A stretch of DNA of 25,461 nucleotides from a virus (lineage: Duplodnaviria; Caudoviricetes): positions 1 to 25,461 of IMG/VR virus record IMGVR_UViG_3300034117_000234. One strand, given 5' to 3'. A model generated the notes under the pieces. That model made no database searches and was not told where the DNA came from. It worked only from the letters and a program-made list of their open reading frames with translations. The position numbers were made by a program, and so were the translations under genes. Shown in pieces: positions 1 through 22,440 of the stretch (positions within the stretch are counted from its first letter, which is position 1; every line of letters starts with the position of its first letter).

Positions 1-260
1 CCTTTTACTTCTCCAAACTGCTTTAGGAGAGTGCTCTTTCCCGTTCCACTAGCGCCCACGATTACGCCAAGACCAAAGGTTCTAGGTAGCGGCGGAAGTT
101 TATACGGGGTGAAACTTGTAGTCCCGTCTGTTTCGTAGTCGAAGTTCTTTATAGCTTCTAGGGCCAGATCCGTAACTACGACCTTAGAAGTTAGGGGTTC
201 TGATTCTTTATCTAGGGTTAGCCAAGAATCGGGGATAGTAAGTTCTTCGGTATTAGACAT
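1..260 (-). CDS. ABC-type P-loop ATPase, N-terminal part (runs off the window edge; not in ORF track)
   Basis: Manual translation from ATG at 260: MSNTEELTIPDSW...RTFGLGVIVGASGTGKSTLLKQFGEVK. Walker A GASGTGKS follows a hydrophobic strand. Start overlaps the stop of the upstream gene. Confidence 0.75.
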   Translation of the reverse strand, partial: MSNTEELTIPDSWLTLDKESEPLTSKVVVTDLALEAIKNFDYETDGTTSFTPYKLPPLPRTFGLGVIVGASGTGKSTLLKQFGEVK

Positions 261-2554: not shown

Positions 2555-2989
2555 CTAAACCCTTGATAAATAGACCCTAGCGCCCGCAACTGGGTAGGTT
2601 TCGGGGGTAGGGCCCGTCCATAACTTGCGAGCGTCGATCTCGACAATAAGGGAATCGTCTAATAAAACGCCCGCCTGAGTCAGAGAATCGCCGACTGCCC
2701 GGACTAGGTGGTCCAGGTCAGGCTTCCCAGCGGGATAGTCCACATACTTTGACTTAGCGGGCCGCTCGATAAAGAAATCGACTTCAAGCTTTACGGGCTC
2801 ACTAAAAGGCGTAACGTCCATAGACTCATTCAGCGCAAGTTTCGCCGCCAACATAACCGCCGATCTCCACTCAGGAAGATACTTCGACGATTCGACCATA
2901 ACGGCCCTACCACCACGAACGTAAGCGGTCTTGCTACCCTGCGGCGCAGGTCGCCCTTCGACCAAGAAAGAAAACTCAGTCCTAGACAA
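2555..2989 (-). CDS. rusA: RusA-like Holliday junction resolvase
   Basis: VEGRPAPQGSK N-terminus, KPDLDHLVRAVGDSL and DDSLIV motifs typical of RusA. Confidence 0.9.
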   Translation of the reverse strand: MSRTEFSFLVEGRPAPQGSKTAYVRGGRAVMVESSKYLPEWRSAVMLAAKLALNESMDVTPFSEPVKLEVDFFIERPAKSKYVDYPAGKPDLDHLVRAVGDSLTQAGVLLDDSLIVEIDARKLWTGPTPETYPVAGARVYLSRV

Positions 2990-2991
2990 AA

Positions 2992-3354
2992 CTAGAACGG
3001 CATATCGTCGGCTACGGCAGTCCAGTCCGACGGAACTTTGTTATTAGAAACATTTACGCCGACGGGTTCGAACGTAGTTCCGTTTATCGAAACCTTTACC
3101 GAGCGACCAGGTTTACCTTCACGATCGAGCTTTATCGAGCCGTCCACGTTCTTCCAATCTTCGATAACCGCCGAGTGAATCCCACTAAAGACACCTTCAG
3201 CGCCCACGTCAAAACGAACAGGCTTCTCAAACCAAGCCGTATAAGTTCTCTGCGCCGACTCACCATTCTTAGTAGTGAAATACTCCGTAACAGTAACCGC
3301 CTTGCCGTCCCAGAAAATCTTCGTAGCAAAACCCTTAACACTGATAGTCGCCAT
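2992..3354 (-). CDS. ssb: Single-stranded DNA-binding protein (OB fold)
   Basis: Beta-rich 120 aa protein with acidic C-terminal DDMPF tail; next to rusA; GGAAGGGG RBS. Confidence 0.75.
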   Translation of the reverse strand: MATISVKGFATKIFWDGKAVTVTEYFTTKNGESAQRTYTAWFEKPVRFDVGAEGVFSGIHSAVIEDWKNVDGSIKLDREGKPGRSVKVSINGTTFEPVGVNVSNNKVPSDWTAVADDMPF

Positions 3355-3392: not shown

Positions 3393-3659
3393 CTACGGCC
3401 GACAATGTTCAACTTCCACGCAATCCTTATGACCGCAAATTCTCAGCCCGATCATAAACAGCTCGCCGTCCACAATCGGATTGTCGTCCCCGTCAAACTC
3501 CCCACCCCAAGGCTTACAAGGCTTACCAAAACCATAACTAATAGTCTTCGCTGGACGCATACGGCAACTAAAGCACAAGCCGTCTTTACGCTCCCGCTTA
3601 TCCAAGGCCACGAAACTCACCTGCCCGCACCTAACGCAAACTATCTTCTTATCGTCCAC
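3393..3659 (-). CDS. Small Cys/His-rich putative zinc-binding protein
   Basis: CVRC, CFSC, CKPW and CGHKDCVEVEH motifs; leaderless GTG start. Confidence 0.75.
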   Translation of the reverse strand: MDDKKIVCVRCGQVSFVALDKRERKDGLCFSCRMRPAKTISYGFGKPCKPWGGEFDGDDNPIVDGELFMIGLRICGHKDCVEVEHCRP

Positions 3660-3665
3660 CCTAAA

Positions 3666-3674
3666 ACCCTAGCA
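3666..3674 (-). promoter_or_regulatory. Extended -10 promoter (TGC-TAGGGT) for a leaderless transcript starting at GTG 3659
   Basis: TGnTAnnnT, then 6 nt, then the start codon. Confidence 0.65.
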
Positions 3675-3699
3675 GTTCTAATAAACGCTTATGGGTTCT

Positions 3700-4070
3700 C
3701 GAAGGGAGAGAGAAGGGCTTAGTTACGCGCCAACTCTCAAACGCCAAGGGACTCTTGGGTTTCGGTCGGGGTCGAGTCTTACGATATCGACTATCTACGC
3801 CATATGCGATAACGGGCTTCTTCGGTTACTAGGTAGATACGGGTTAGTAACGCCGCTATTGCTCTGCCGATCTCTCTTCGGCTTTTGCTCGGCCAAGGCT
3901 ACATTTCTGCGCCGAGCATACTAAACAGTCTGGCTCTAACCCACTGAAACCGCGACTATGAATCGACGGGAAATTGACTTTAGTTCGGGTTAACGAGTTG
4001 GCACTCTCCGAACACTTGGCCGAAGCCAAGATTTTACCCGAATAGTTCGGGCCTGTTGCTATTCAGTTAT
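3700..4070 (-). ncRNA. Candidate large structured non-coding RNA (boundaries approximate)
   Basis: ORF-free on the minus strand; about 9 hairpins including C(UUCG)G, GAAA and GUAA tetraloops; two pseudoknot pairings; G-U wobbles work only on the minus strand. Confidence 0.65.
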
Positions 4071-4093
4071 AGGAATCTTTCGCTTTCTTGCTC

Positions 4094-4924
4094 TTAGGTT
4101 AGTCCGTCATAATAAGGCGGAACTTCGTTCTTAGTTCTCTCAAACCTAGGCTTTCCCCACCGCTCAAACCAAAACTTTATTACTTCATCTCTTTTAGCGG
4201 GATCGTTAGCCACGTGATAGTAGATACCCCTTTTCTTTCCGTGAACCAAGGTCCGAGATTTATCTCCGCTTGCTTTACGATAAGCACTTATTCTACGCAT
4301 ACGCGGATTACTACCAGAACCAAACTTAGACGAAGGCACTTCAAAATTATTCGCTCGAAGCCAGTTCATCATTTCTAAATACTCGGAATCTGAAATATGT
4401 TCGTGCCCGAAACCTTTTGTATACCCTAAAAACTTATAGACCCGATTATACTGACTGCCTTTGCCGTAAAGACTTGTGGTAGTTATACCGATAAGGTCGT
4501 CCCCGTATTGCTCTTTCCAGAAGTCGCCAAAGGTCGTCGCTAGAAGGGCAACTAGTTTGCCGCCGTTCCAGTGCCAACCGAACGGCTGATTGGCAACGCA
4601 GACACTTAGGTCGGCATAGTTCCTAAGTGCTTTACCGCGCTCCGAAGGGTCTTTCGGTAGCCCTAGAGCAGAATCTCTATCGCTCATATTTATTACAGGC
4701 GAAGCAAGAAAAGCCAAACCCAAGATTAGGTTGTCGTATTCAATAAGAAAACCTAACTTCCTTCCAGGCGCTGGTCTCCATACTGCCTTCGACATTTGGG
4801 GTTGTAGTTTTGCTAATTCCCCTGCGGTAACTTTTCTAACAGTTATGCGCGTCCAATCTAGATCGGTAACCATACAGTTATTTACAATTGCTACGTCGTC
4901 GAATAGTTGCTCTAATGCGGACAT
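4094..4924 (-). CDS. DUF4338 / Druantia DruA-like protein (putative GNAT/Mom-like fold)
   Basis: Motifs PGRKLGF, LASP...RD, QPFG...GGKLVALL, TTTSLYG..SQYNR and GYTKG recalled as typical of this family. Confidence 0.75.
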   Translation of the reverse strand: MSALEQLFDDVAIVNNCMVTDLDWTRITVRKVTAGELAKLQPQMSKAVWRPAPGRKLGFLIEYDNLILGLAFLASPVINMSDRDSALGLPKDPSERGKALRNYADLSVCVANQPFGWHWNGGKLVALLATTFGDFWKEQYGDDLIGITTTSLYGKGSQYNRVYKFLGYTKGFGHEHISDSEYLEMMNWLRANNFEVPSSKFGSGSNPRMRRISAYRKASGDKSRTLVHGKKRGIYYHVANDPAKRDEVIKFWFERWGKPRFERTKNEVPPYYDGLT

Positions 4925-12748: not shown

Positions 12749-14907
12749 TAGACCAGAGCCACGTTCGATCGGTTGTATTTGTTTAGCTCGGCTTGGATAG
12801 CCTGACCTACTGCCTTGCCGTCCGTTCCAAGACCAGCTCGGACGTTGATAGTAATAGTCTGAGCACCCTGCCCGCCCGTAGCCATTATGTAGCGGTTTGC
12901 CAGCCCGCGACTCACTGCGCTATTCGCACCCGCAACCCCAGAGTTACCCTTAGCGATATCGGCGATACTAAGAGTCATACTCTCGATTTCCTGCGAAGGC
13001 ACTTTCAGATTTGTAATCATAGAATTAAACGTAGAAGTAAACGCGTCCGCGAGCGCGGTAGCCGCGTCCACTAAGGCTTGCTCTTGGCTCATAAGACCAG
13101 CCACAAGGCCACCCGCGACTTCCACGCCGTTATTGAACATAACTAGCGCAGTATCTTCCGCTATGGCCGCTCCAACGCGCTCAAGTTCGCTAAACAGGTT
13201 ATTCAGTTCGCTAACAGTTCCAGCGCCGCCCTTGATAATCTCAGCGGCCGTAGCAGACCCCGCTTCAAGCCCTGCGTCTACGATCTGCTTATACAGGTTC
13301 TTATCAAGACCTAGTTCGCGGAGTTGCTTCAACTGCGAAGCAAAAGCCTTAGTCTTAGAAACTACATCTGTAAAGTTCGAAACTAGGTTGCCCGTTTCCT
13401 GATTTACCAAATCAGTAACAGTTGCGAAACCGCGAACCGCGTCTTTTACTTCACCGATAAGAGCTTCGGCAAGTCCACGCTTAGAAGCAAGTTCGTCTCT
13501 TTGGCGAGCAATAGCAGTTAGGGCTTTACGTTCGGTTTCGACATAAGCAAGAAGGTTTCTACCAGCCCGCTCGATAATCGTCCCGTTACCGATTCCGTCC
13601 TTTATAGACTCCGCAATAGCGTCGAAACTATCGACCGAAGCTTGCTCGAACTGTCCTATCTCACGTCCTAGCAAAATAAGCGGTTGGACTGCTCCTGTAA
13701 GACCTTGAAGTTCTTTTACTAAATCAGCGAGAGCTTCTTGCTCTTTCGCCAAGGCTTCTGCTAGGGCTTTTGATTCAGCGGCAAGTTTCTTCTTAGATTC
13801 CGCCGCCGCCTTCTGCGCCGCAGTAAGGGCCTTAGTTCCTTTAGTTGCGGGGTCTAGACCCTTTATCTCTGGAACTTTTAGATCAGTAGTAGTCTCTTCA
13901 ATGTTCTTAATGTTGCTACTAATACTGCCAATCATTAAGTCGAGAGCAACGAAAGTTCCGATACCAGCCGCGAGAGCCGCCGCCGCCGTAGCGATAGCCG
14001 CCCAGCCCTTACCCGATTCCGCACCCTTGATAACAAACTGAGTTAGGGCGATAGCCTTTTGTGCGCCGTAAATTGCTTTCGTAATGTTGAAGATTACGAC
14101 CCAAGCTTTAGCCATAGCCGCAAGACCAGCGATAGTCTGGACGATCCACCTATTGTTACCGAGCCAAGTAACCATAGAAGCGACCGAAGTTACAATCTCA
14201 GCGAAGGCCCTAGCAATTAGTTTCAGTTGCTCTTGCCCTAGCGGTGAACTTAGCCAGTCTGCGAACTGATTTAGATAAGGCAGAAGTGCCATACCGATTT
14301 GCTCTTGGAGATCTCCGAAGATTATGCTTAGACGCTGGTAGGGGTCTAGGTCTGCCGCCGCTTCAGCCGCGCCGCCGTAAGTTTCCTGTAGGAAAGCCAT
14401 TTTGTCGCTAACATTAGCGATTCCAGGAACTAGCCTATTTAGTGCGGTTGCTTGCCCGCCGTGGGCTTTCGCAAGAGCCGAACTAACGGCAGATAGGTCT
14501 TTGCCTGTTCCTGCCGAAACGTCAAGAGCAAGCGACATAAGCCCAGTCGCCGAAGTGATATCGCCCGTAGCAACCACTAAGCGGGAGAAAGCTGGGCGAA
14601 TATTGTCGTCGGCGATAGCCGAAAGATTCTGGAACTTAGTTATCTGAGTTTCAACTGCGGCAATTTGCTCATTAGTTGCGCCTACAGTATTTCTAAGAGC
14701 AATAGCTAAGAGTCCCTGAGATTTAGCGTCCTGCGCCGCGGCTTTACCCGCCGCCTTCAACTGGCCAGTGAGAGCCGCCAAACCAAGGCCAACACCGATA
14801 CCAGCCAAAGATTTCTTGATATTGCTACTAAGGTCGCCAAAACCCTTCTTAGCGTCCTTGAAACCTTTAGGGTCTATCTTTGCGAGAATAGGGACGATTA
14901 CTGCCAT
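12748..14907 (-). CDS. Tail tape measure protein
   Basis: 719 aa, Ala/Leu-rich and helical; position after the tail chaperones. Confidence 0.85.
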   Translation of the reverse strand: MAVIVPILAKIDPKGFKDAKKGFGDLSSNIKKSLAGIGVGLGLAALTGQLKAAGKAAAQDAKSQGLLAIALRNTVGATNEQIAAVETQITKFQNLSAIADDNIRPAFSRLVVATGDITSATGLMSLALDVSAGTGKDLSAVSSALAKAHGGQATALNRLVPGIANVSDKMAFLQETYGGAAEAAADLDPYQRLSIIFGDLQEQIGMALLPYLNQFADWLSSPLGQEQLKLIARAFAEIVTSVASMVTWLGNNRWIVQTIAGLAAMAKAWVVIFNITKAIYGAQKAIALTQFVIKGAESGKGWAAIATAAAALAAGIGTFVALDLMIGSISSNIKNIEETTTDLKVPEIKGLDPATKGTKALTAAQKAAAESKKKLAAESKALAEALAKEQEALADLVKELQGLTGAVQPLILLGREIGQFEQASVDSFDAIAESIKDGIGNGTIIERAGRNLLAYVETERKALTAIARQRDELASKRGLAEALIGEVKDAVRGFATVTDLVNQETGNLVSNFTDVVSKTKAFASQLKQLRELGLDKNLYKQIVDAGLEAGSATAAEIIKGGAGTVSELNNLFSELERVGAAIAEDTALVMFNNGVEVAGGLVAGLMSQEQALVDAATALADAFTSTFNSMITNLKVPSQEIESMTLSIADIAKGNSGVAGANSAVSRGLANRYIMATGGQGAQTITINVRAGLGTDGKAVGQAIQAELNKYNRSNVALV

Positions 14908-14918
14908 TTAATAATCTC

Positions 14919-15437
14919 CTACAATCTGACCATTTTTGTATATTTATCCAAGACCATTCTAACTTCTGCTTCGACAGCGGGCAGTTTCTTATCTACCGCG
15001 GGCCAAACAATACGAGAAGGATTACCGCCCAGACGAGCATTAAGCGATTCAATAAAAGCCGCGCCTTGTTTACTTCTGGCCCGTTGAGCAGTATCGGCTA
15101 TGGCAACCGAAGGTGCGTTCGCAACTACTCTTACTAACGAAGTGATAAGAGTTTTTTTAGATCCAGTGCTCTTGAAACTAACTGAAACTGATTTGGCGGG
15201 AACTCTTTGTTTTTTATAGTTAACAGAGTTATTCCACGAAGTTCGCCCGTTATGACTCCAGCCGTCTTTACGTTTACCAAGAAACGGAGAATAAGCAGGG
15301 ATAGCCTTTACGATAGCGTCCTGAATTACCTTCGCGGGCTTCTTTGCTTCCTTCTGAAGTTCCCGCTTCAACTTCACATCAATAAGGTCTAGCCGCCGAT
15401 TTAGCTCACGAACGTTTGAGTAGATAACGTCTGCCAT
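14919..15437 (-). CDS. Basic tail-completion protein (HK97 gp10-like)
   Basis: Lys/Arg-rich; PSRIVWPAV near the C-terminus; tail module position. Confidence 0.55.
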   Translation of the reverse strand: MADVIYSNVRELNRRLDLIDVKLKRELQKEAKKPAKVIQDAIVKAIPAYSPFLGKRKDGWSHNGRTSWNNSVNYKKQRVPAKSVSVSFKSTGSKKTLITSLVRVVANAPSVAIADTAQRARSKQGAAFIESLNARLGGNPSRIVWPAVDKKLPAVEAEVRMVLDKYTKMVRL

Positions 15438-15595
15438 TATCGTTTACTCATTTCGTTTGCTTTCCAAATAAGGTATCGCCCCATAGTCCAGAGCATACGA
15501 TCTGACTGCTCTAGAAGGACACTTGGAGCGATACCTGTTTCGCAAGCTAGGCTAGCGATATACCAATGGGAACTATCGTCGCCTAGACCTACTAT
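15437..15595 (-). CDS. -1 frameshift extension of the tail assembly chaperone (G-T type; not in ORF track)
   Basis: Slippery C-CCA-AAA at 15601-15595 just before the TAG. The -1 frame is open for 52 codons (IVGLGDDSSHWYIASLACETGIAPSVLL...) and ends in TAATG coupled to the next gene. Confidence 0.8.
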   Translation of the reverse strand: MVGLGDDSSHWYIASLACETGIAPSVLLEQSDRMLWTMGRYLIWKANEMSKR

Positions 15596-15846
15596 TTTGG
15601 GTCTAGTTCCTCACTTGCGCCGACTGTATCTACAGTATCGACCCAAGTATCGAAGTCGAGAGTAGTTGCTTTCGTGCGGGTTTCTGAAGCGTGGACCAAG
15701 AAAAGCAAGTAGCTTATCTTTAAATCATTCTCCAACTTACCCACGGACATATTGAAGTGATTTTCGAACTTGACTAGATCACTAGCCGAGCAAACCACTT
15801 CTTTAGTTTCGCCGTTTAGAAAACTAACGCGTAGGGTTATTCTCAT
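15592..15846 (-). CDS. Tail assembly chaperone
   Basis: Lies between the major tail and tape measure genes; ends at the slippery site. Confidence 0.8.
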   Translation of the reverse strand: MRITLRVSFLNGETKEVVCSASDLVKFENHFNMSVGKLENDLKISYLLFLVHASETRTKATTLDFDTWVDTVDTVGASEELDPK

Positions 15847-15865
15847 TCTTGTTTATCCTTTTGGA

Positions 15866-16276
15866 TTAGGCGGTTGCCCGCGTTATTGCCCCGACAGTCG
15901 GAATCGTGATATCGAATGTCTGGAGATCGCCGACTGCGCCCGTGATTGGCATATATTGAGACACCAGGACAGTTGCGCTATAGGCGGGATTTGTGGCAGA
16001 GACAGTTCCCGAAGCTGGACGAATGACTACAGTTCCTTCAGTTCCCAAGAGCGGGAATAGAGTTGCGTCTACCGAACCTGCTCCGAAGTCCTGGAGAAAG
16101 TTTAGAGTGACCGAACCACTCTTTAGACCTGCGGCAACTTCGCGCCAGCCCTGCGAACCTAGCGAAGTCTTGTCGATCTCTTCGACAGTAATTTCAAGCG
16201 AAGCCCCAGCCAAGCTTGACGATAGGTCAGTTCCGTTTAGACTGACGAATCTTGATGTAACTACTACTTTTGGCAT
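15866..16276 (-). CDS. Major tail (tube) protein
   Basis: 136 aa beta-rich; GLKSGSVTLNFLQD and GAVGDL motifs; synteny. Confidence 0.8.
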   Translation of the reverse strand: MPKVVVTSRFVSLNGTDLSSSLAGASLEITVEEIDKTSLGSQGWREVAAGLKSGSVTLNFLQDFGAGSVDATLFPLLGTEGTVVIRPASGTVSATNPAYSATVLVSQYMPITGAVGDLQTFDITIPTVGAITRATA

Positions 16277-17309: not shown

Positions 17310-18503
17310 TTAGCGTTTGAGCAATTTAGTTAGCGTCGGCAACCAATGATTCTGCCAAACAGTTTCGGAATCGAACTGTTGAGCAAACTCGACTGACTTC
17401 TTGGAGACTCCACGCTCGGCTTTATACGCTTCTTCGAGCGCGGCGACAATCGACGGGACTAGCGGGACTTGCCAGAAAGACGACTGAGAAGCGTCCCAAG
17501 TAGGTTGCCCTTCGACTAGCCAAGAGTCGTCTGAAACTAGATCTGGAGTAGCGGCCCAGTTTGAGCCGATAGTCCGCACTCCGCAAGCCTGGGCTTCAAT
17601 AGTTGGAACTCCAAATCCTTCTCCGAAGGACGGGGCAAGAAATACGTCCATAGTCGAATAAAGCCCTGCTAAGTCTGTATTAGAGATTCCGTATTTATAG
17701 TCGATAAAAGGCGCAAACAAAACTGCTTCCTTCGGGATACCGAAAGCCTGAACCATAGTAATAAGATTCCAACCGCCCGCACTCCCTAACGGGTCTGTGT
17801 GTAGATAAAGCACCGCGTCTGGGTGCGACTGCCTAAAGATCGAGAAAGCCAGTAAATTCTCGCTAAAGGCTTTGCGGTGAATAAGGCCCGAAGCTTTATT
17901 CGCGGCGTTCATACCAATAACAAACTGGTCCTTCACGCCAAGATACTCTCTGCCGGGTTGCCCGCCGATCGTAGCCGTCGGCTTGAATACCTTTGTGTCT
18001 ACGACGTGCGGAACATACTCGCAAGCAATACCCTTCGACTCCATTTGCCGAACCCCGAACGGGCTCATAGCGATAGGTGTTACGTTCTCTTTCCGCAGGA
18101 ACTCTTCGACCATAGGCGGCATAGTAACGTGATCAAGCGGAGTCCACCAAGCTACAGGGTGCTTATCCCACGCTTTACCCTTGATAACCCAGCAGTCATA
18201 CAGACCTAAAAGCAAATCGGGCTGGTCTCCGTTTAGCGATTTCCAGTGCGCGTGATTCATAGGCGCAACGTCATTCGAATAAGGGTCGCTACCCCGCGCA
18301 TAGTGCGGAATCTCCCCATAAGCCGTTCTATAAGTAGATCGGTTGCCTTCAAGACCATAATTCGACTGAGCGGCCACGTCAAGCCCCGCCCGCTTCATCT
18401 GTTCAATAAGAACCTGAGCTTGGACCCCGTAGCCCGTAGGTTGCCCCGGACTGTTTGAGTAGAGCGTTACAGTGCCCTTTAGTTTCTGCGTAGATTTAGC
18501 CAT
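17310..18503 (-). CDS. GT-B (GT4-like) glycosyltransferase
   Basis: TGYG near the N-terminus; HVVDTKVF; DVFLAPSFGEGFGVPTIEAQACG (ExFGxxxxE). Confidence 0.9.
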   Translation of the reverse strand: MAKSTQKLKGTVTLYSNSPGQPTGYGVQAQVLIEQMKRAGLDVAAQSNYGLEGNRSTYRTAYGEIPHYARGSDPYSNDVAPMNHAHWKSLNGDQPDLLLGLYDCWVIKGKAWDKHPVAWWTPLDHVTMPPMVEEFLRKENVTPIAMSPFGVRQMESKGIACEYVPHVVDTKVFKPTATIGGQPGREYLGVKDQFVIGMNAANKASGLIHRKAFSENLLAFSIFRQSHPDAVLYLHTDPLGSAGGWNLITMVQAFGIPKEAVLFAPFIDYKYGISNTDLAGLYSTMDVFLAPSFGEGFGVPTIEAQACGVRTIGSNWAATPDLVSDDSWLVEGQPTWDASQSSFWQVPLVPSIVAALEEAYKAERGVSKKSVEFAQQFDSETVWQNHWLPTLTKLLKR

Positions 18504-20099: not shown

Positions 20100-20258
20100 T
20101 TAGCGAGTTTCTTCTGCGGCTTTCACGCGAACTTCTTTAGTCGCGTTAGCCGAGTTTTGAATAGCGTCGATAAGTTCCTTGACCACGCCGACGCTAGGGT
20201 CTCCAGCGACTTCCTTGATAAGTTTTACCGCTAGTTCGATTTCGTCTTTCGTTGCCAT
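20100..20258 (-). CDS. Small head-module protein (52 aa; not in ORF track)
   Basis: Manual translation MATKDEIELAVKLIKEVAGDPSVGVVKELIDAIQNSANATKEVRVKAAEETR; TAATG coupling. Confidence 0.75.
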   Translation of the reverse strand: MATKDEIELAVKLIKEVAGDPSVGVVKELIDAIQNSANATKEVRVKAAEETR

Positions 20259-22180
20259 TAGATTCCTAACATTAGTAGATCGAGCTTCTTCTTCTTCAGC
20301 GCCAAAATGTCGCCTTCGACTTCTTGAACTTCTGGAGTCTTAGTAAGTTTACTAACTACTTCGCTAACTAGATTTGCTTGCTCCGCTTCTAGTTCTTCTC
20401 CAAGTTCAAGTTTTAGCAAAGCGTCTGCCAGAGTGTCTGCGTCTATCGCGCCTTCAATCGAGCGAACCGAAGTCGTCCCAGTTGTAGACATATATGCCGG
20501 GAAAGCAACTAAAGATACTTCGTGAAGCGAAACTCGATTTAGGGTTCGAACGTTACCCGTCTTATCCCAAGAGTCGCCGCCCTGCGGAACAGTAAAGCCA
20601 AAGCTCATAGCCGAAACGTCCCCACGTTTAAGAAGAACAGAAGCGTCCCGCCCTGCCTGAGTGTCCGGGAGAGAAGCAATAGCCTTCAAGCCGAAAGAAT
20701 CTTCTACTAGGCGCAGGGTCCCCGCTCTAGTCGATCCAAGAACGATTCCCGTATCGTGATTCCAGAGAAGCTTTATATCGTTCCTAGACTGAAGGCTCTT
20801 GCGGAAAGCACCCGGCGCGATACGTTCGATAAAGGGTAGCGGGCTAGAGTCTGAATTGAAAACAGCCGCGTAGCCTTCGAAGGTCATTCCGTCGCCTGTT
20901 TCACGAATCTCGAACTTTACGTCTGCGGTTCGGGTTTCATTAGGGTTCTTGGCCCTGCCTTCGTCCGATACGCCTTCGATTCTGGCCTTTATTGCGTAAG
21001 CCGCGTTTAGCCACTTCGTTCGGGTAGGAATAACCATAGACTCGGTAAGTTCTGGAAGTTCTTCGGGCTCGATAAGCGGCTGGACCTTCTTTAGATCGGC
21101 GATAAGGACAGTAACAGTTAGGCCAGTGGATTCCCAGTTTCTATCTTCTTCTTCGTAGATAGTAACCTGAGCAGAATCGCCTTCAAGGGCTACAACTTCC
21201 CCAGCATAGGCTTCAGTCCCAATAAGCCAAGCAACATAGTCGCCGACGGCTAGTTCGTCTGGGAGAGCGCGGGTCTGTTCAATCATACGTTCGCTTTCTT
21301 CTTGTTCTCTAATTCTAGCAACCACCGAGTCGGCGTAATCTTGAGCGCGGCGAGCGGCGGTCTTGCTTGGTCCACTACCCCAGAGAAGGTGAGCAACTAC
21401 GCCCGCCGAAGGATAGTTGTCTGAATTAGGGTTCGCGTCTGGACTATCAAGGTCTACTAGGTGGCGGGCAATCCACGCCGCTATTCGAATCCATTTGTCG
21501 TCTGAAACTTGGCCTACTGCCATAAGTCGAGCTTCTCGGATAGTTCTATCGACTACGCCGTCGCCCGCTAGTCCCTGCTCGTAGTAGCGAAGTCCTTGTC
21601 TGGCCGCCGCTCTCATATAGGCGGGTGCGTCCTGATTTATCGCGCGAACCGAGTTCTCGTCTGGGAGAGCAACAGGGTCAGTCGCTTTTAGACCGAGTGT
21701 GCGGTAAGCCGCGAGCGCGTCATAGTTATTCTCGACGACTTCGATAATGTTATAGGTTTCGAGAAGTTTCTCGGCGGTGGCCCGCTTGTATTCGGTCTGA
21801 TCTTCGCTAGAACCTGGGTTCATTATTAGGCGGGTATAAGAAACGCCCAAATCGTCTAGGGTCTGCTTAGTGTCCGCTTCGTCGTCTACAGACCTGCCCG
21901 TAACTATGAAAAGCGCCGCGTCGAGCGACTGAAGATAGTTATAGGTTTTGCGAATTAGAGAATTACCACGAATAAGAGTGTCGTCAAGATCACTAATAAC
22001 AATAGGTTCGCCCGCTTCATTTCTCTCTCCCATAAAAGGTTCGTCGTCGCCAAGACTAATAGCGACCGCCTGAGCAATAGCCGAGTCTTTTGTTTCGTGG
22101 CAACCGAAAACTTCGCCGCCCTGATCGACTACCGCCCAGCCTGAGCAGTCCGCCGCTTCGTCCGTAATGTAGTAAGGCAT
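20258..22180 (-). CDS. Multidomain prohead protease (N-terminal HAD-like and other domains; C-terminal HK97-type protease)
   Basis: Start trimmed to MPYY (TAATG coupling). C-terminal FEGYAAVFN...LLWNHD...MSFGF...LHEVSLVAFPAY; N-terminal ISDLDDTL and IVTGR. Confidence 0.88.
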   Translation of the reverse strand: MPYYITDEAADCSGWAVVDQGGEVFGCHETKDSAIAQAVAISLGDDEPFMGERNEAGEPIVISDLDDTLIRGNSLIRKTYNYLQSLDAALFIVTGRSVDDEADTKQTLDDLGVSYTRLIMNPGSSEDQTEYKRATAEKLLETYNIIEVVENNYDALAAYRTLGLKATDPVALPDENSVRAINQDAPAYMRAAARQGLRYYEQGLAGDGVVDRTIREARLMAVGQVSDDKWIRIAAWIARHLVDLDSPDANPNSDNYPSAGVVAHLLWGSGPSKTAARRAQDYADSVVARIREQEESERMIEQTRALPDELAVGDYVAWLIGTEAYAGEVVALEGDSAQVTIYEEEDRNWESTGLTVTVLIADLKKVQPLIEPEELPELTESMVIPTRTKWLNAAYAIKARIEGVSDEGRAKNPNETRTADVKFEIRETGDGMTFEGYAAVFNSDSSPLPFIERIAPGAFRKSLQSRNDIKLLWNHDTGIVLGSTRAGTLRLVEDSFGLKAIASLPDTQAGRDASVLLKRGDVSAMSFGFTVPQGGDSWDKTGNVRTLNRVSLHEVSLVAFPAYMSTTGTTSVRSIEGAIDADTLADALLKLELGEELEAEQANLVSEVVSKLTKTPEVQEVEGDILALKKKKLDLLMLGI

Positions 22181-22440
22181 TAGGTTACCTTCAGCCAACT
22201 AACTAAGTGATTACTTGAACTTGATACAACCCAAACAGAATCACCGGGAGAAACCTGAATCTCTGTGGAATCGGTCTTTTCTAAAATAAGTCCATTAGAA
22301 GTTGTAACGTCGCCGCCGCCAAGATAAAGATTTATCTGATTATCGTTATTATGGATATGTAAACGATAAACGCTTTGGCTTGTGCCGTTCAGTTGAACGC
22401 GCGTAGTTCCTACTGTAACTTGCCCCGAACTAATTGCCAT
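22180..22440 (-). CDS. Small beta-rich virion-associated hypothetical protein
   Basis: ORF track; coupled to the portal gene. Confidence 0.7.
   Translation of the reverse strand: MAISSGQVTVGTTRVQLNGTSQSVYRLHIHNNDNQINLYLGGGDVTTSNGLILEKTDSTEIQVSPGDSVWVVSSSSNHLVSWLKVT

What the first reader, a model, noticed from the sequence alone, without database searches (positions are those of the whole stretch)
3700..4070. ~350-nt highly structured, doubly pseudoknotted candidate ncRNA in the replication/recombination module
Seen: this is the largest gap without a minus-strand gene in an otherwise overlapping gene array. Hairpins: 4037-4051; 4015-4030 (6 bp, C-UUCG-G on minus); 3983-3988/4008-4013; 3950-3969; 3886-3893/3911-3918 (8 bp enclosing a GAAA loop); 3866-3882; 3825-3831/3845-3851; 3771-3791 (GUAA loop); 3744-3758. 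Tertiary-type pairings: loop 3995-4004 with 3727-3736 (10 bp, about 260 nt apart, one G-U valid only on minus) and loop 3833-3839 with 3792-3798 (7 bp, H-type). An alternative 7-bp pairing 3841-3847/3936-3942 suggests a conformational switch. Inference: a large phage ncRNA that I cannot assign to a known class. It could be a replication primer RNA, a ribozyme, or a partner of the flanking DUF4338 or zinc-finger protein.
Basis: partly seen in the sequence, partly recalled or inferred. Interest (0 to 1): 0.8.

Follow-up and report, generated by a model that had tools for sequence, protein, structure and literature searches.

The report
Phage RNA replacing replication initiator protein
Lake phages carry an uncatalogued, roughly 330-base knotted RNA gene in the place where their relatives carry the protein and DNA repeats that start genome copying, so the RNA likely starts replication itself by pairing with its own DNA template.

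Summary
The structured RNA is real and belongs to no Rfam family. It lies on the minus strand (core 4013 to about 3682) of a freshwater actinophage. I found 44 distinct homologous stretches. In 32 aligned sequences, 57 of 79 pairs show two-sided compensatory change, including four pseudoknots. Its long-range pseudoknot pairs strongly only in the window's clade, and its switch is not conserved.

The RNA alternates with the lambda-O-like initiator and its iterons. Of 80 loci chosen by a neighbouring gene, 16 have the RNA and no initiator or DnaB; 63 of the other 64 have one or both. Ten of 11 near-complete RNA-bearing genomes show no known initiator, primase, helicase or polymerase; the eleventh looks chimeric. 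A mini-phage pair shows the same swap. A covarying 6-9-nt direct repeat near the 3' end fits the RNA invading its template.

Best reading: a ColE1-like, RNA-primed origin in tailed phages (about 0.6; some role in initiation about 0.8). Expression and priming are untested.

The parts
3682..4013 (-). Conserved core of the structured RNA (about 330 nt, P1 to the 3' repeat)
   Evidence: 44 distinct homologous stretches; covariation; no conserved frame
4014..4071 (-). Clade-specific 5' region: candidate -10 hexamers at 4071-4066 (non-canonical last base, invariant in 5 close relatives) and 4036-4031, plus two hairpins (4037-51, 4015-30)
   Evidence: the start site here is inferred, not mapped
3983..4013 (-). 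P1/P1b hairpin with a conserved A / GUUAG-type internal loop
   Evidence: 100% of cells paired, 7 of 9 pairs covary
3972..3991 (-). 2-bp pseudoknot 3991-3990 with 3973-3972
   Evidence: both pairs covary, 32 of 32 paired
3901..3969 (-). P2 hairpin (3950-3969) whose loop 3961-3958 kisses the P4 loop 3904-3901
   Evidence: P2: 5 of 7 pairs covary; kissing helix: 2 of 4 covary, 91.7% paired
3926..3946 (-).
   Evidence: 5 of 6 pairs covary
3886..3922 (-). P4 (3886-93/3911-18) and a 3-bp pseudoknot 3922-3920 with 3899-3897
   Evidence: only 2 of the 3 pseudoknot pairs form in the window
3866..3882 (-). P5: 5-bp stem with a 7-nt purine loop (T-loop-like by recalled consensus)
   Evidence: 5 of 5 pairs covary
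3792..3863 (-). P6/P7 stem with H-type pseudoknot 3839-3833 / 3798-3792; the most conserved core
   Evidence: kept with different letters in L031 (read by eye)
3771..3791 (-). P8, GNRA-capped hairpin
   Evidence: 6 of 7 pairs covary; double compensatory change in near-identical strain L001 and in run X12
3738..3745 (-). R1, upstream copy of the covarying direct repeat (3' strand of P9); predicted to pair with template DNA
3692..3737 (-).
   Evidence: P10 weakly supported: 1 of 5 pairs covaries, misaligned for this clade
3682..3689 (-). R2, downstream copy of the repeat, 56 nt after R1; predicted site of RNA-DNA hybrid nucleation and approximate origin
   Evidence: function inferred
3666..3674 (-). 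Extended -10 promoter 6 nt before the zinc-finger start codon (leaderless mRNA predicted)
   Evidence: TANNNT 6-7 nt before the start in 32 of 32 RNA loci with a zinc-finger start; 17 of 56 RNA-less loci
3393..3659 (-). Cys/His-rich zinc-finger-like ORF of unknown family
   Evidence: no Pfam or PHROG hit; Atlas hits at most 0.80
2992..3354 (-). Probable single-strand DNA-binding protein
   Evidence: no direct hit; same BLAST cluster as a protein matching SSB family phrog_44
2555..2989 (-). RusA Holliday junction resolvase
   Evidence: PF05866
4094..4924 (-). DruA/DUF4338-like gene in a variable slot; not part of the system
   Evidence: PF14236; replaced by methyltransferases in L002-L004

Best explanation
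The locus encodes a roughly 330-nt, four-pseudoknot RNA that sits in place of the lambda-O-like initiator gene and its iterons and likely starts phage DNA replication as a ColE1-like pre-primer. Shown: the fold, the swap with initiator plus iterons, the absence of known replication enzymes, the flanking -10 boxes and the covarying direct repeat. Inferred steps: (1) host RNA polymerase would transcribe the RNA from the -10 box about 9 nt upstream of P1; (2) the folded RNA would present R1 so that it pairs with the template strand opposite R2 as polymerase opens it 51-63 nt downstream, nucleating a persistent RNA-DNA hybrid; (3) host RNase H and DNA polymerase I would process and extend the 3' end; (4) the displaced strand, coated by phage SSB, would let host PriA and DnaB assemble a fork; (5) the separate leaderless promoter would keep zinc-finger, SSB and RusA expressed although transcription is caught at the RNA's 3' end. 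Some role in initiation: about 0.8; this primer mechanism: about 0.6.
For: Mutual exclusion: of the best 80 (of 207) zinc-finger loci, 16 carry the RNA and 0 of these an initiator or DnaB, while 63 of 64 RNA-less loci carry one or both; the last has only 415 nt upstream. Whole records: HTH_36 in 0 of 22 RNA-bearing and 17 of 17 RNA-less; the initiator matches phrog_270 and O-like families. Ten near-complete RNA-bearing genomes, four with terminal repeats, lack phrog_270 and Prim-Pol. No initiator, primase, helicase or polymerase among the ORFs scanned with PHROGs, and no hit of my initiator or DnaB profiles in 556 ORFs. Iteron arrays in 5 of 5 initiator loci and 0 of 5 RNA slots. RNA and initiator phages interleave on TerL (4 changes) and capsid (3 changes) trees, at least 2 forced by starred branches. 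Collinear mini-phages G017 and the first 13 kb of G194 (capsid 61% identical) differ between the same two genes by RNA versus initiator plus iterons. A third virion type also has the RNA and no HTH_36. TANNNT lies 5-11 nt before P1 in 20 of 34, background 6.6%. Direct repeat: longest shared run 6.21 against 3.93 permuted (0 of 100,000; 19 representatives; control segments 3.7-4.4). Mismatches compatible with RNA-template wobble number 25 against 3 reverse. The P9 5' strand pairs worse with R2 in 16 cases and better in 5. No conserved RNA partner for R2 exists. ColE1 precedent: PMC5043065.
Against: No transcript, hybrid or replication was observed. One record (G194, rated 99% complete) has both an initiator and the RNA; I read it as a chimera because the RNA lies in an opposite-strand block 64-88% identical to large-phage genes and cuts into the mini-phage module, but this is unproven. 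On the RecE tree only 1 change is forced, so some of the exclusion is shared ancestry. An unrecognised small protein could be the initiator; ORFs under 70-90 aa were not all scanned. The RNA lacks ColE1's guanine-rich stretch (PMC6317783); its tail is C/U-rich, which by recalled rule disfavours R-loops. The predicted hybrid is only 5-12 bp. The G-to-A bias could partly reflect G being needed in P9. No conserved antisense promoter was found (at most 8 of 26 in any bin). In the window's own clade no canonical -10 is conserved next to P1. The RNA and initiator profiles were built from members of the tested set.
Confidence: 0.6

Rival explanations
1. The RNA replaces the initiator as a scaffold or protein mimic: it would recruit host helicase, loader or PriA, or hold RNA polymerase stalled at the origin, without itself being extended as a primer.
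For: Same exclusion data. The fold is more elaborate than a primer needs: four pseudoknots, T-loop-like loops and an invariant core. DnaB is lost along with the initiator.
Against: It does not explain the covarying direct repeat and its wobble bias, unless the repeat only tethers the RNA.
Confidence: 0.17
2. The RNA has another job (ribozyme, anti-defence or regulatory RNA, protein-free assembly) and these phages replicate by recombination-primed forks using RecE/RecT/ERF, SSB and RusA; the slot-sharing is historical.
For: RNA-bearing genomes keep recombination genes. The RecE tree allows a single origin. One record holds both. Large phage RNAs such as ROOL and GOLLD form assemblies of unknown role (PMC12641628).
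Against: Initiator phages carry the same recombination genes. The swap recurs in a separate mini-phage family and across structural-gene trees. Recombination-primed replication still needs a first origin (general knowledge). The topology does not fit group I, group II, RNase P or tmRNA as recalled, and Rfam and ARAGORN find nothing.
Confidence: 0.12
3. The structure acts as single-stranded DNA, a single-strand-origin-like signal for host RNA polymerase or primase.
For: Weinberg 2017 notes that plasmid motifs such as GEBRO may act as ssDNA (PMC5737381). No RNA data are in hand.
Against: GNRA tetraloop, many one-sided G-U changes and a position-fixed -10 box just before P1 point to a transcript. 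There is no rolling-circle Rep to generate ssDNA.
Confidence: 0.07
4. It is a cis-regulatory leader (riboswitch or attenuator) of the zinc-finger/SSB/RusA operon.
For: It lies directly upstream of the zinc-finger gene in most homologs.
Against: That gene has its own leaderless promoter in 32 of 32. In G017 the next gene is SSB, and in five further homologs other genes follow. It does not explain the initiator loss.
Confidence: 0.04

Closest known systems
ColE1 RNA II pre-primer (class B theta replicon)
   Same: No encoded initiator; a promoter-driven structured RNA hundreds of bases long at the origin; hybrid, RNase H, polymerase I and D-loop helicase loading is the model I borrow (PMC5043065 passages). 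Pairing of an upstream RNA segment with downstream template (Masukata and Tomizawa 1990) is recalled; I saw only its citation.
   Different: Tailed dsDNA phages of Actinomycetota rather than enterobacterial plasmids; about 330 against 550 nt; no sequence or Rfam match; no guanine-rich stretch; the repeat varies in sequence and covaries; no RNA I-like antisense promoter found; interchangeable with an O-like initiator.
MRB (Marine RNA-based) plasmid RNA II / PAGEV motif
   Same: Rep-less, iteron-less origin encoding a long RNA (PMC3035462 passages; PAGEV in PMC5737381; equating the two is my inference).
   Different: Vibrionaceae plasmids, RNA II at least 465 nt with a 68-nt antisense RNA I; no Rfam or BLAST match here.
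ARRPOF and GEBRO motifs
   Same: Large structured motifs (223-349 nt range for the three plasmid motifs) in replication regions; ARRPOF lies in a region that replicates without rep.
   Different: Fusobacterium and Streptococcus plasmids; no Rfam match at E up to 1-10.
Lambda O-type initiator with internal iterons (phrog_270, HTH_36; RepO of Pontimonas phage phiPsal1)
   Same: Occupies the same genomic slot in sister phages.
   Different: It is a protein plus DNA repeats; the window's phage has neither.
ROOL, GOLLD, OLE large ornate RNAs
   Same: Large, pseudoknotted, often phage-borne, function unknown.
   Different: No Rfam match; shorter than their recalled 580-800 nt; no tRNA genes in the window.

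Membership tests
ColE1-type RNA-primed replicon | No element-encoded initiator protein | tested here: met
   10 of 11 near-complete RNA-bearing genomes; the exception G194 is probably chimeric
ColE1-type RNA-primed replicon | Promoter-driven long structured RNA ending at the origin | tested here: inconclusive
   Structure and -10 box shown; transcript and origin position not observed
ColE1-type RNA-primed replicon | Sequence or structure homology to RNA II / RNA I | tested here: not met
   No Rfam hit; no plasmid BLAST hit with homolog L034
ColE1-type RNA-primed replicon | Guanine-rich stretch upstream of the origin | tested here: not met
   Tail is C/U-rich in the alignments; a variable direct repeat is present instead
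ColE1-type RNA-primed replicon | Antisense RNA I over the 5' end | tested here: inconclusive
   Antisense TANNNT in at most 8 of 26 per position bin; no RNA data
ColE1-type RNA-primed replicon | Persistent hybrid, RNase H processing, polymerase I dependence | not testable with these tools
   Needs biochemistry and genetics
ARRPOF / GEBRO / PAGEV | Match to the Rfam covariance model | tested here: not met
   (presence of these models in Rfam 15 is recalled)
MRB replicons | 488-bp homologous origin with 68-nt RNA I, in Vibrionaceae plasmids | tested here: not met
   No match among 72,556 plasmids with homolog L034
Group I / group II intron, RNase P, tmRNA | Covariance-model or ARAGORN match and core topology | tested here: not met
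   topology compared from memory; no interrupted gene
Self-cleaving ribozyme (any class) | Site-specific self-cleavage | not testable with these tools
   No Rfam class matches; activity untested
Retron or OMEGA RNA | Dedicated reverse transcriptase or IscB/TnpB partner gene | tested here: not met
   None among the ORFs scanned; upstream neighbour is variable

The most novel reading that the evidence does not exclude
A new class of pseudoknotted RNA is the sole replication initiator of several families of tailed freshwater phages: it invades its own template through a sequence-variable guide repeat, primes host replication, and is exchanged as a cassette with lambda-O-type protein initiators.
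Probability: 0.55. Interest if true: 0.92.

Novelty: new variant of a known kind. Interest (0 to 1): 0.83.

Why it matters
The papers I could read describe RNA-only initiation for plasmids (ColE1, MRB). If this holds, tailed phages swap a protein initiator and iteron origin for a 330-base RNA, repeatedly. That would explain phage genomes with no recognisable replication gene and give a function to a new large ncRNA class. A 2016 review calls the trigger for persistent hybrid formation speculative even in ColE1 (PMC5043065); the naturally covarying R1/R2 repeat makes that question testable by simple compensatory mutations. A compact protein-free replicon could also serve as a vector for freshwater Microbacteriaceae.

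Tried and rejected
Rfam at E up to 1 (window), 5 (8 homolog loci) and 10 (7 divergent homologs): nothing near a gathering score. BLAST of annotated phages and plasmids: one 30-nt chance hit, otherwise none. Core covariance model in 151 genomes of the Leifsonia family sample: not found in those searched, no positive control. GTDB pattern scan: 1 real hit of 69, a phage-like contig in a Saccharibacteria bin. Metagenome scan: most of 111 hits were chance. Two exact-motif hits (L029, L030) were chance. phiPsal1 has RepO and no RNA. Sequencing runs: no RNA holder listed; contigs gave only strain variants. GC skew peaks around the early region in both phage types and is uninformative. The RusA tree did not finish. 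A full-length covariance model was too slow to calibrate, so only the core was modelled. An RNA-RNA switch for the repeat is disfavoured. The window's AAA ORF (3-260) was checked as a possible helicase and is an ABC ATPase-acetyltransferase. Literature: ten searches found no description of this RNA or of RNA-primed initiator-less tailed phages; most subscription papers are not covered. Fremin 2023 (PMC10690425) lists viral candidates of at most 151 nt; its alignment archives could not be searched, so fragments of this RNA may be among them.

Full report
Context. The window is a 25-kb piece of a tailed phage with HK97-type capsid, WhiB, RecE, ERF and RusA. The 24 listed sequencing runs that hold part of the region are DNA metagenomes, 22 of them labelled lake water. 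The closest cultured relative by capsid is Pontimonas phage phiPsal1, 49.5% identical, so a Microbacteriaceae host is inferred. The candidate lies in a 434-nt gap between a DruA-like gene (4094-4924) and a zinc-finger-like ORF (3393-3659), followed by a probable SSB and RusA.

Observation. Folding energy alone is only moderately unusual (z -2.9 minus, -1.5 plus). Rfam gives nothing for the window, 8 homolog loci or 7 divergent homologs.

Homologs. Protein-anchored and pattern searches, filtered with nucleotide profiles, gave 44 distinct matching stretches besides the window; a few are near-identical and one is partial. The 32 aligned in A7 have 64% mean and 45% minimum pairwise identity. No reading frame is kept.

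Structure. On A7, 79 pairs in 17 helices are 92.5% paired, with 57 pairs changing on both sides; the score is 0.547 against 0.22 for shuffles and at most 0.12 for slid partners. The structure was derived from this alignment, guided by an unbiased covariation scan. A strain 99.5% identical over 2.1 kb carries a double compensatory change in P8, also seen in run X12. The proposed switch is not conserved.

Boundaries. A TANNNT hexamer lies 5-11 nt before P1 in 20 of 34 homologs against 6.6% background. The window's clade instead has a 5' extension with two hairpins and no conserved canonical hexamer. A second hexamer sits 6-7 nt before the zinc-finger start in 32 of 32 loci, and in 17 of 56 RNA-less loci. 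The downstream operon therefore has its own leaderless promoter and the RNA is unlikely to be its leader. The upstream gene varies (DruA, methyltransferases, Mom-like, HNH).

The swap. Among the best 80 of 207 zinc-finger loci, 16 have the RNA and none of these an initiator or DnaB; of the other 64, 51 hit the initiator profile, 52 hit DnaB and 63 hit at least one (profiles built from members of the set). DnaB occurs in 0 of 21 RNA-bearing viral records and 11 of 17 RNA-less. The initiator matches phrog_270 and O-like families. Iteron arrays are present at 5 of 5 initiator loci and at 0 of 5 RNA slots. Ten RNA-bearing genomes rated 96-100% complete lack phrog_270 and Prim-Pol; PHROGs scans of 101, 53 and 60 proteins show no initiator, primase, helicase, polymerase or integrase apart from the controls and G194. 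Very short ORFs and most structural ORFs were not scanned.

Independence. On TerL and capsid trees the two states need 4 and 3 changes, at least 2 forced; on RecE only 1 is forced. A mini-phage family shows the swap separately: G017 has ERF-like gene, RNA, SSB where collinear G194 has ERF-like gene, a 104-aa gene, initiator with iterons, SSB. A third virion type (G191, G196, G197) has the RNA in a different gene order and no HTH_36. The exception is G194 itself, which also carries the RNA in an opposite-strand terminal block resembling large phages; I take it as a probable chimera.

Mechanistic clue. The 6-9 nt after the P9 loop (R1, window 3745-3738) recur 51-63 nt downstream (R2, 3689-3682), and the repeated word differs between clades. 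Across 19 representatives the longest shared run is 6.21 against 3.93 permuted (0 of 100,000); control segments give 3.7-4.4 (L031 was mis-anchored there, which lowers the score, and was corrected). In 27 distinct pairs, 190 of 243 positions are identical; 25 differences allow a wobble between upstream RNA and template, 3 are the reverse and 25 are transversions. R1 bases unpaired in P9 are about as often identical (60 of 80) as paired ones (130 of 163). R2 has no conserved partner within the RNA. The simplest shared partner is the template strand. This resembles the recalled ColE1 mechanism, but P9 constraints could contribute to the bias.

Model and comparison. ColE1 uses a host-transcribed RNA that forms a persistent hybrid, is cut by RNase H and extended by polymerase I, with helicase loaded on the displaced strand (PMC5043065, passages; PMC6317783, passages). 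MRB plasmids are a second Rep-less, RNA-dependent family (PMC3035462, passages). ARRPOF, GEBRO and PAGEV are replication-linked motifs (PMC5737381, passages); PMC12641628 (passages) covers their cryo-EM structures. PMC12753305 (abstract only) describes a protein-dependent replicon and does not bear on this. This RNA is predicted to work like RNA II but fails membership by sequence, G-tract and antisense tests. Earlier notes of this scan report similar ideas in other elements; I did not check them and do not count them as support.

Verdict. A real new RNA family; about 0.8 that it acts in replication initiation and 0.6 that it is the primer. Novelty: new variant of a known kind. Interest 0.83.

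Noticed in passing
window 4094-4924: A stand-alone DruA/DUF4338 gene occupies a variable slot that holds DNA methyltransferases or Mom-like genes in relatives, and sits between initiator and DnaB in RNA-less phages (L007); possibly a DNA-modification or counter-defence cassette.
   Followed up: partly
window 3-260; L322:7730-8872: 380-aa ABC ATPase plus acetyltransferase fusion (phrog_11143); a similar-looking gene precedes the zinc finger in L042.
   Followed up: partly
window 20258-22198: Prohead protease carries an N-terminal HAD phosphatase-like domain (PF03767).
   Followed up: no
window 17310-18503: Glycosyltransferase gene between capsid and head-tail adaptor, conserved in most relatives and in phiPsal1; possible virion glycosylation.
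   Followed up: no
L002:1409-2573; L003:97-1501; L032:1327-2647: Cytosine methyltransferase encoded as two overlapping ORFs in different frames, directly upstream of the RNA.
   Followed up: no
L438 (G194) about 13100-16171: Mini-phage record ending in an opposite-strand block from a large phage; probable chimeric assembly rated 99% complete.
   Followed up: partly
L274:3912-4237: Close homolog of the window's RNA, with zinc finger, SSB and RusA, on a contig binned in a Saccharibacteria genome; likely mis-binned phage DNA.
   Followed up: partly
L431:17226-19105: RNA ligase and polynucleotide kinase pair in RNA-bearing phage G191 only.
   Followed up: no
L347 and L438: A family of about 13-16 kb tailed mini-phages with fused protease-capsid gene and both replication types.
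   Followed up: partly
window 3660-3674 and homologs: Strictly spaced leaderless promoter before an unclassified Cys/His zinc-finger gene found in at least 207 viral loci.
   Followed up: partly
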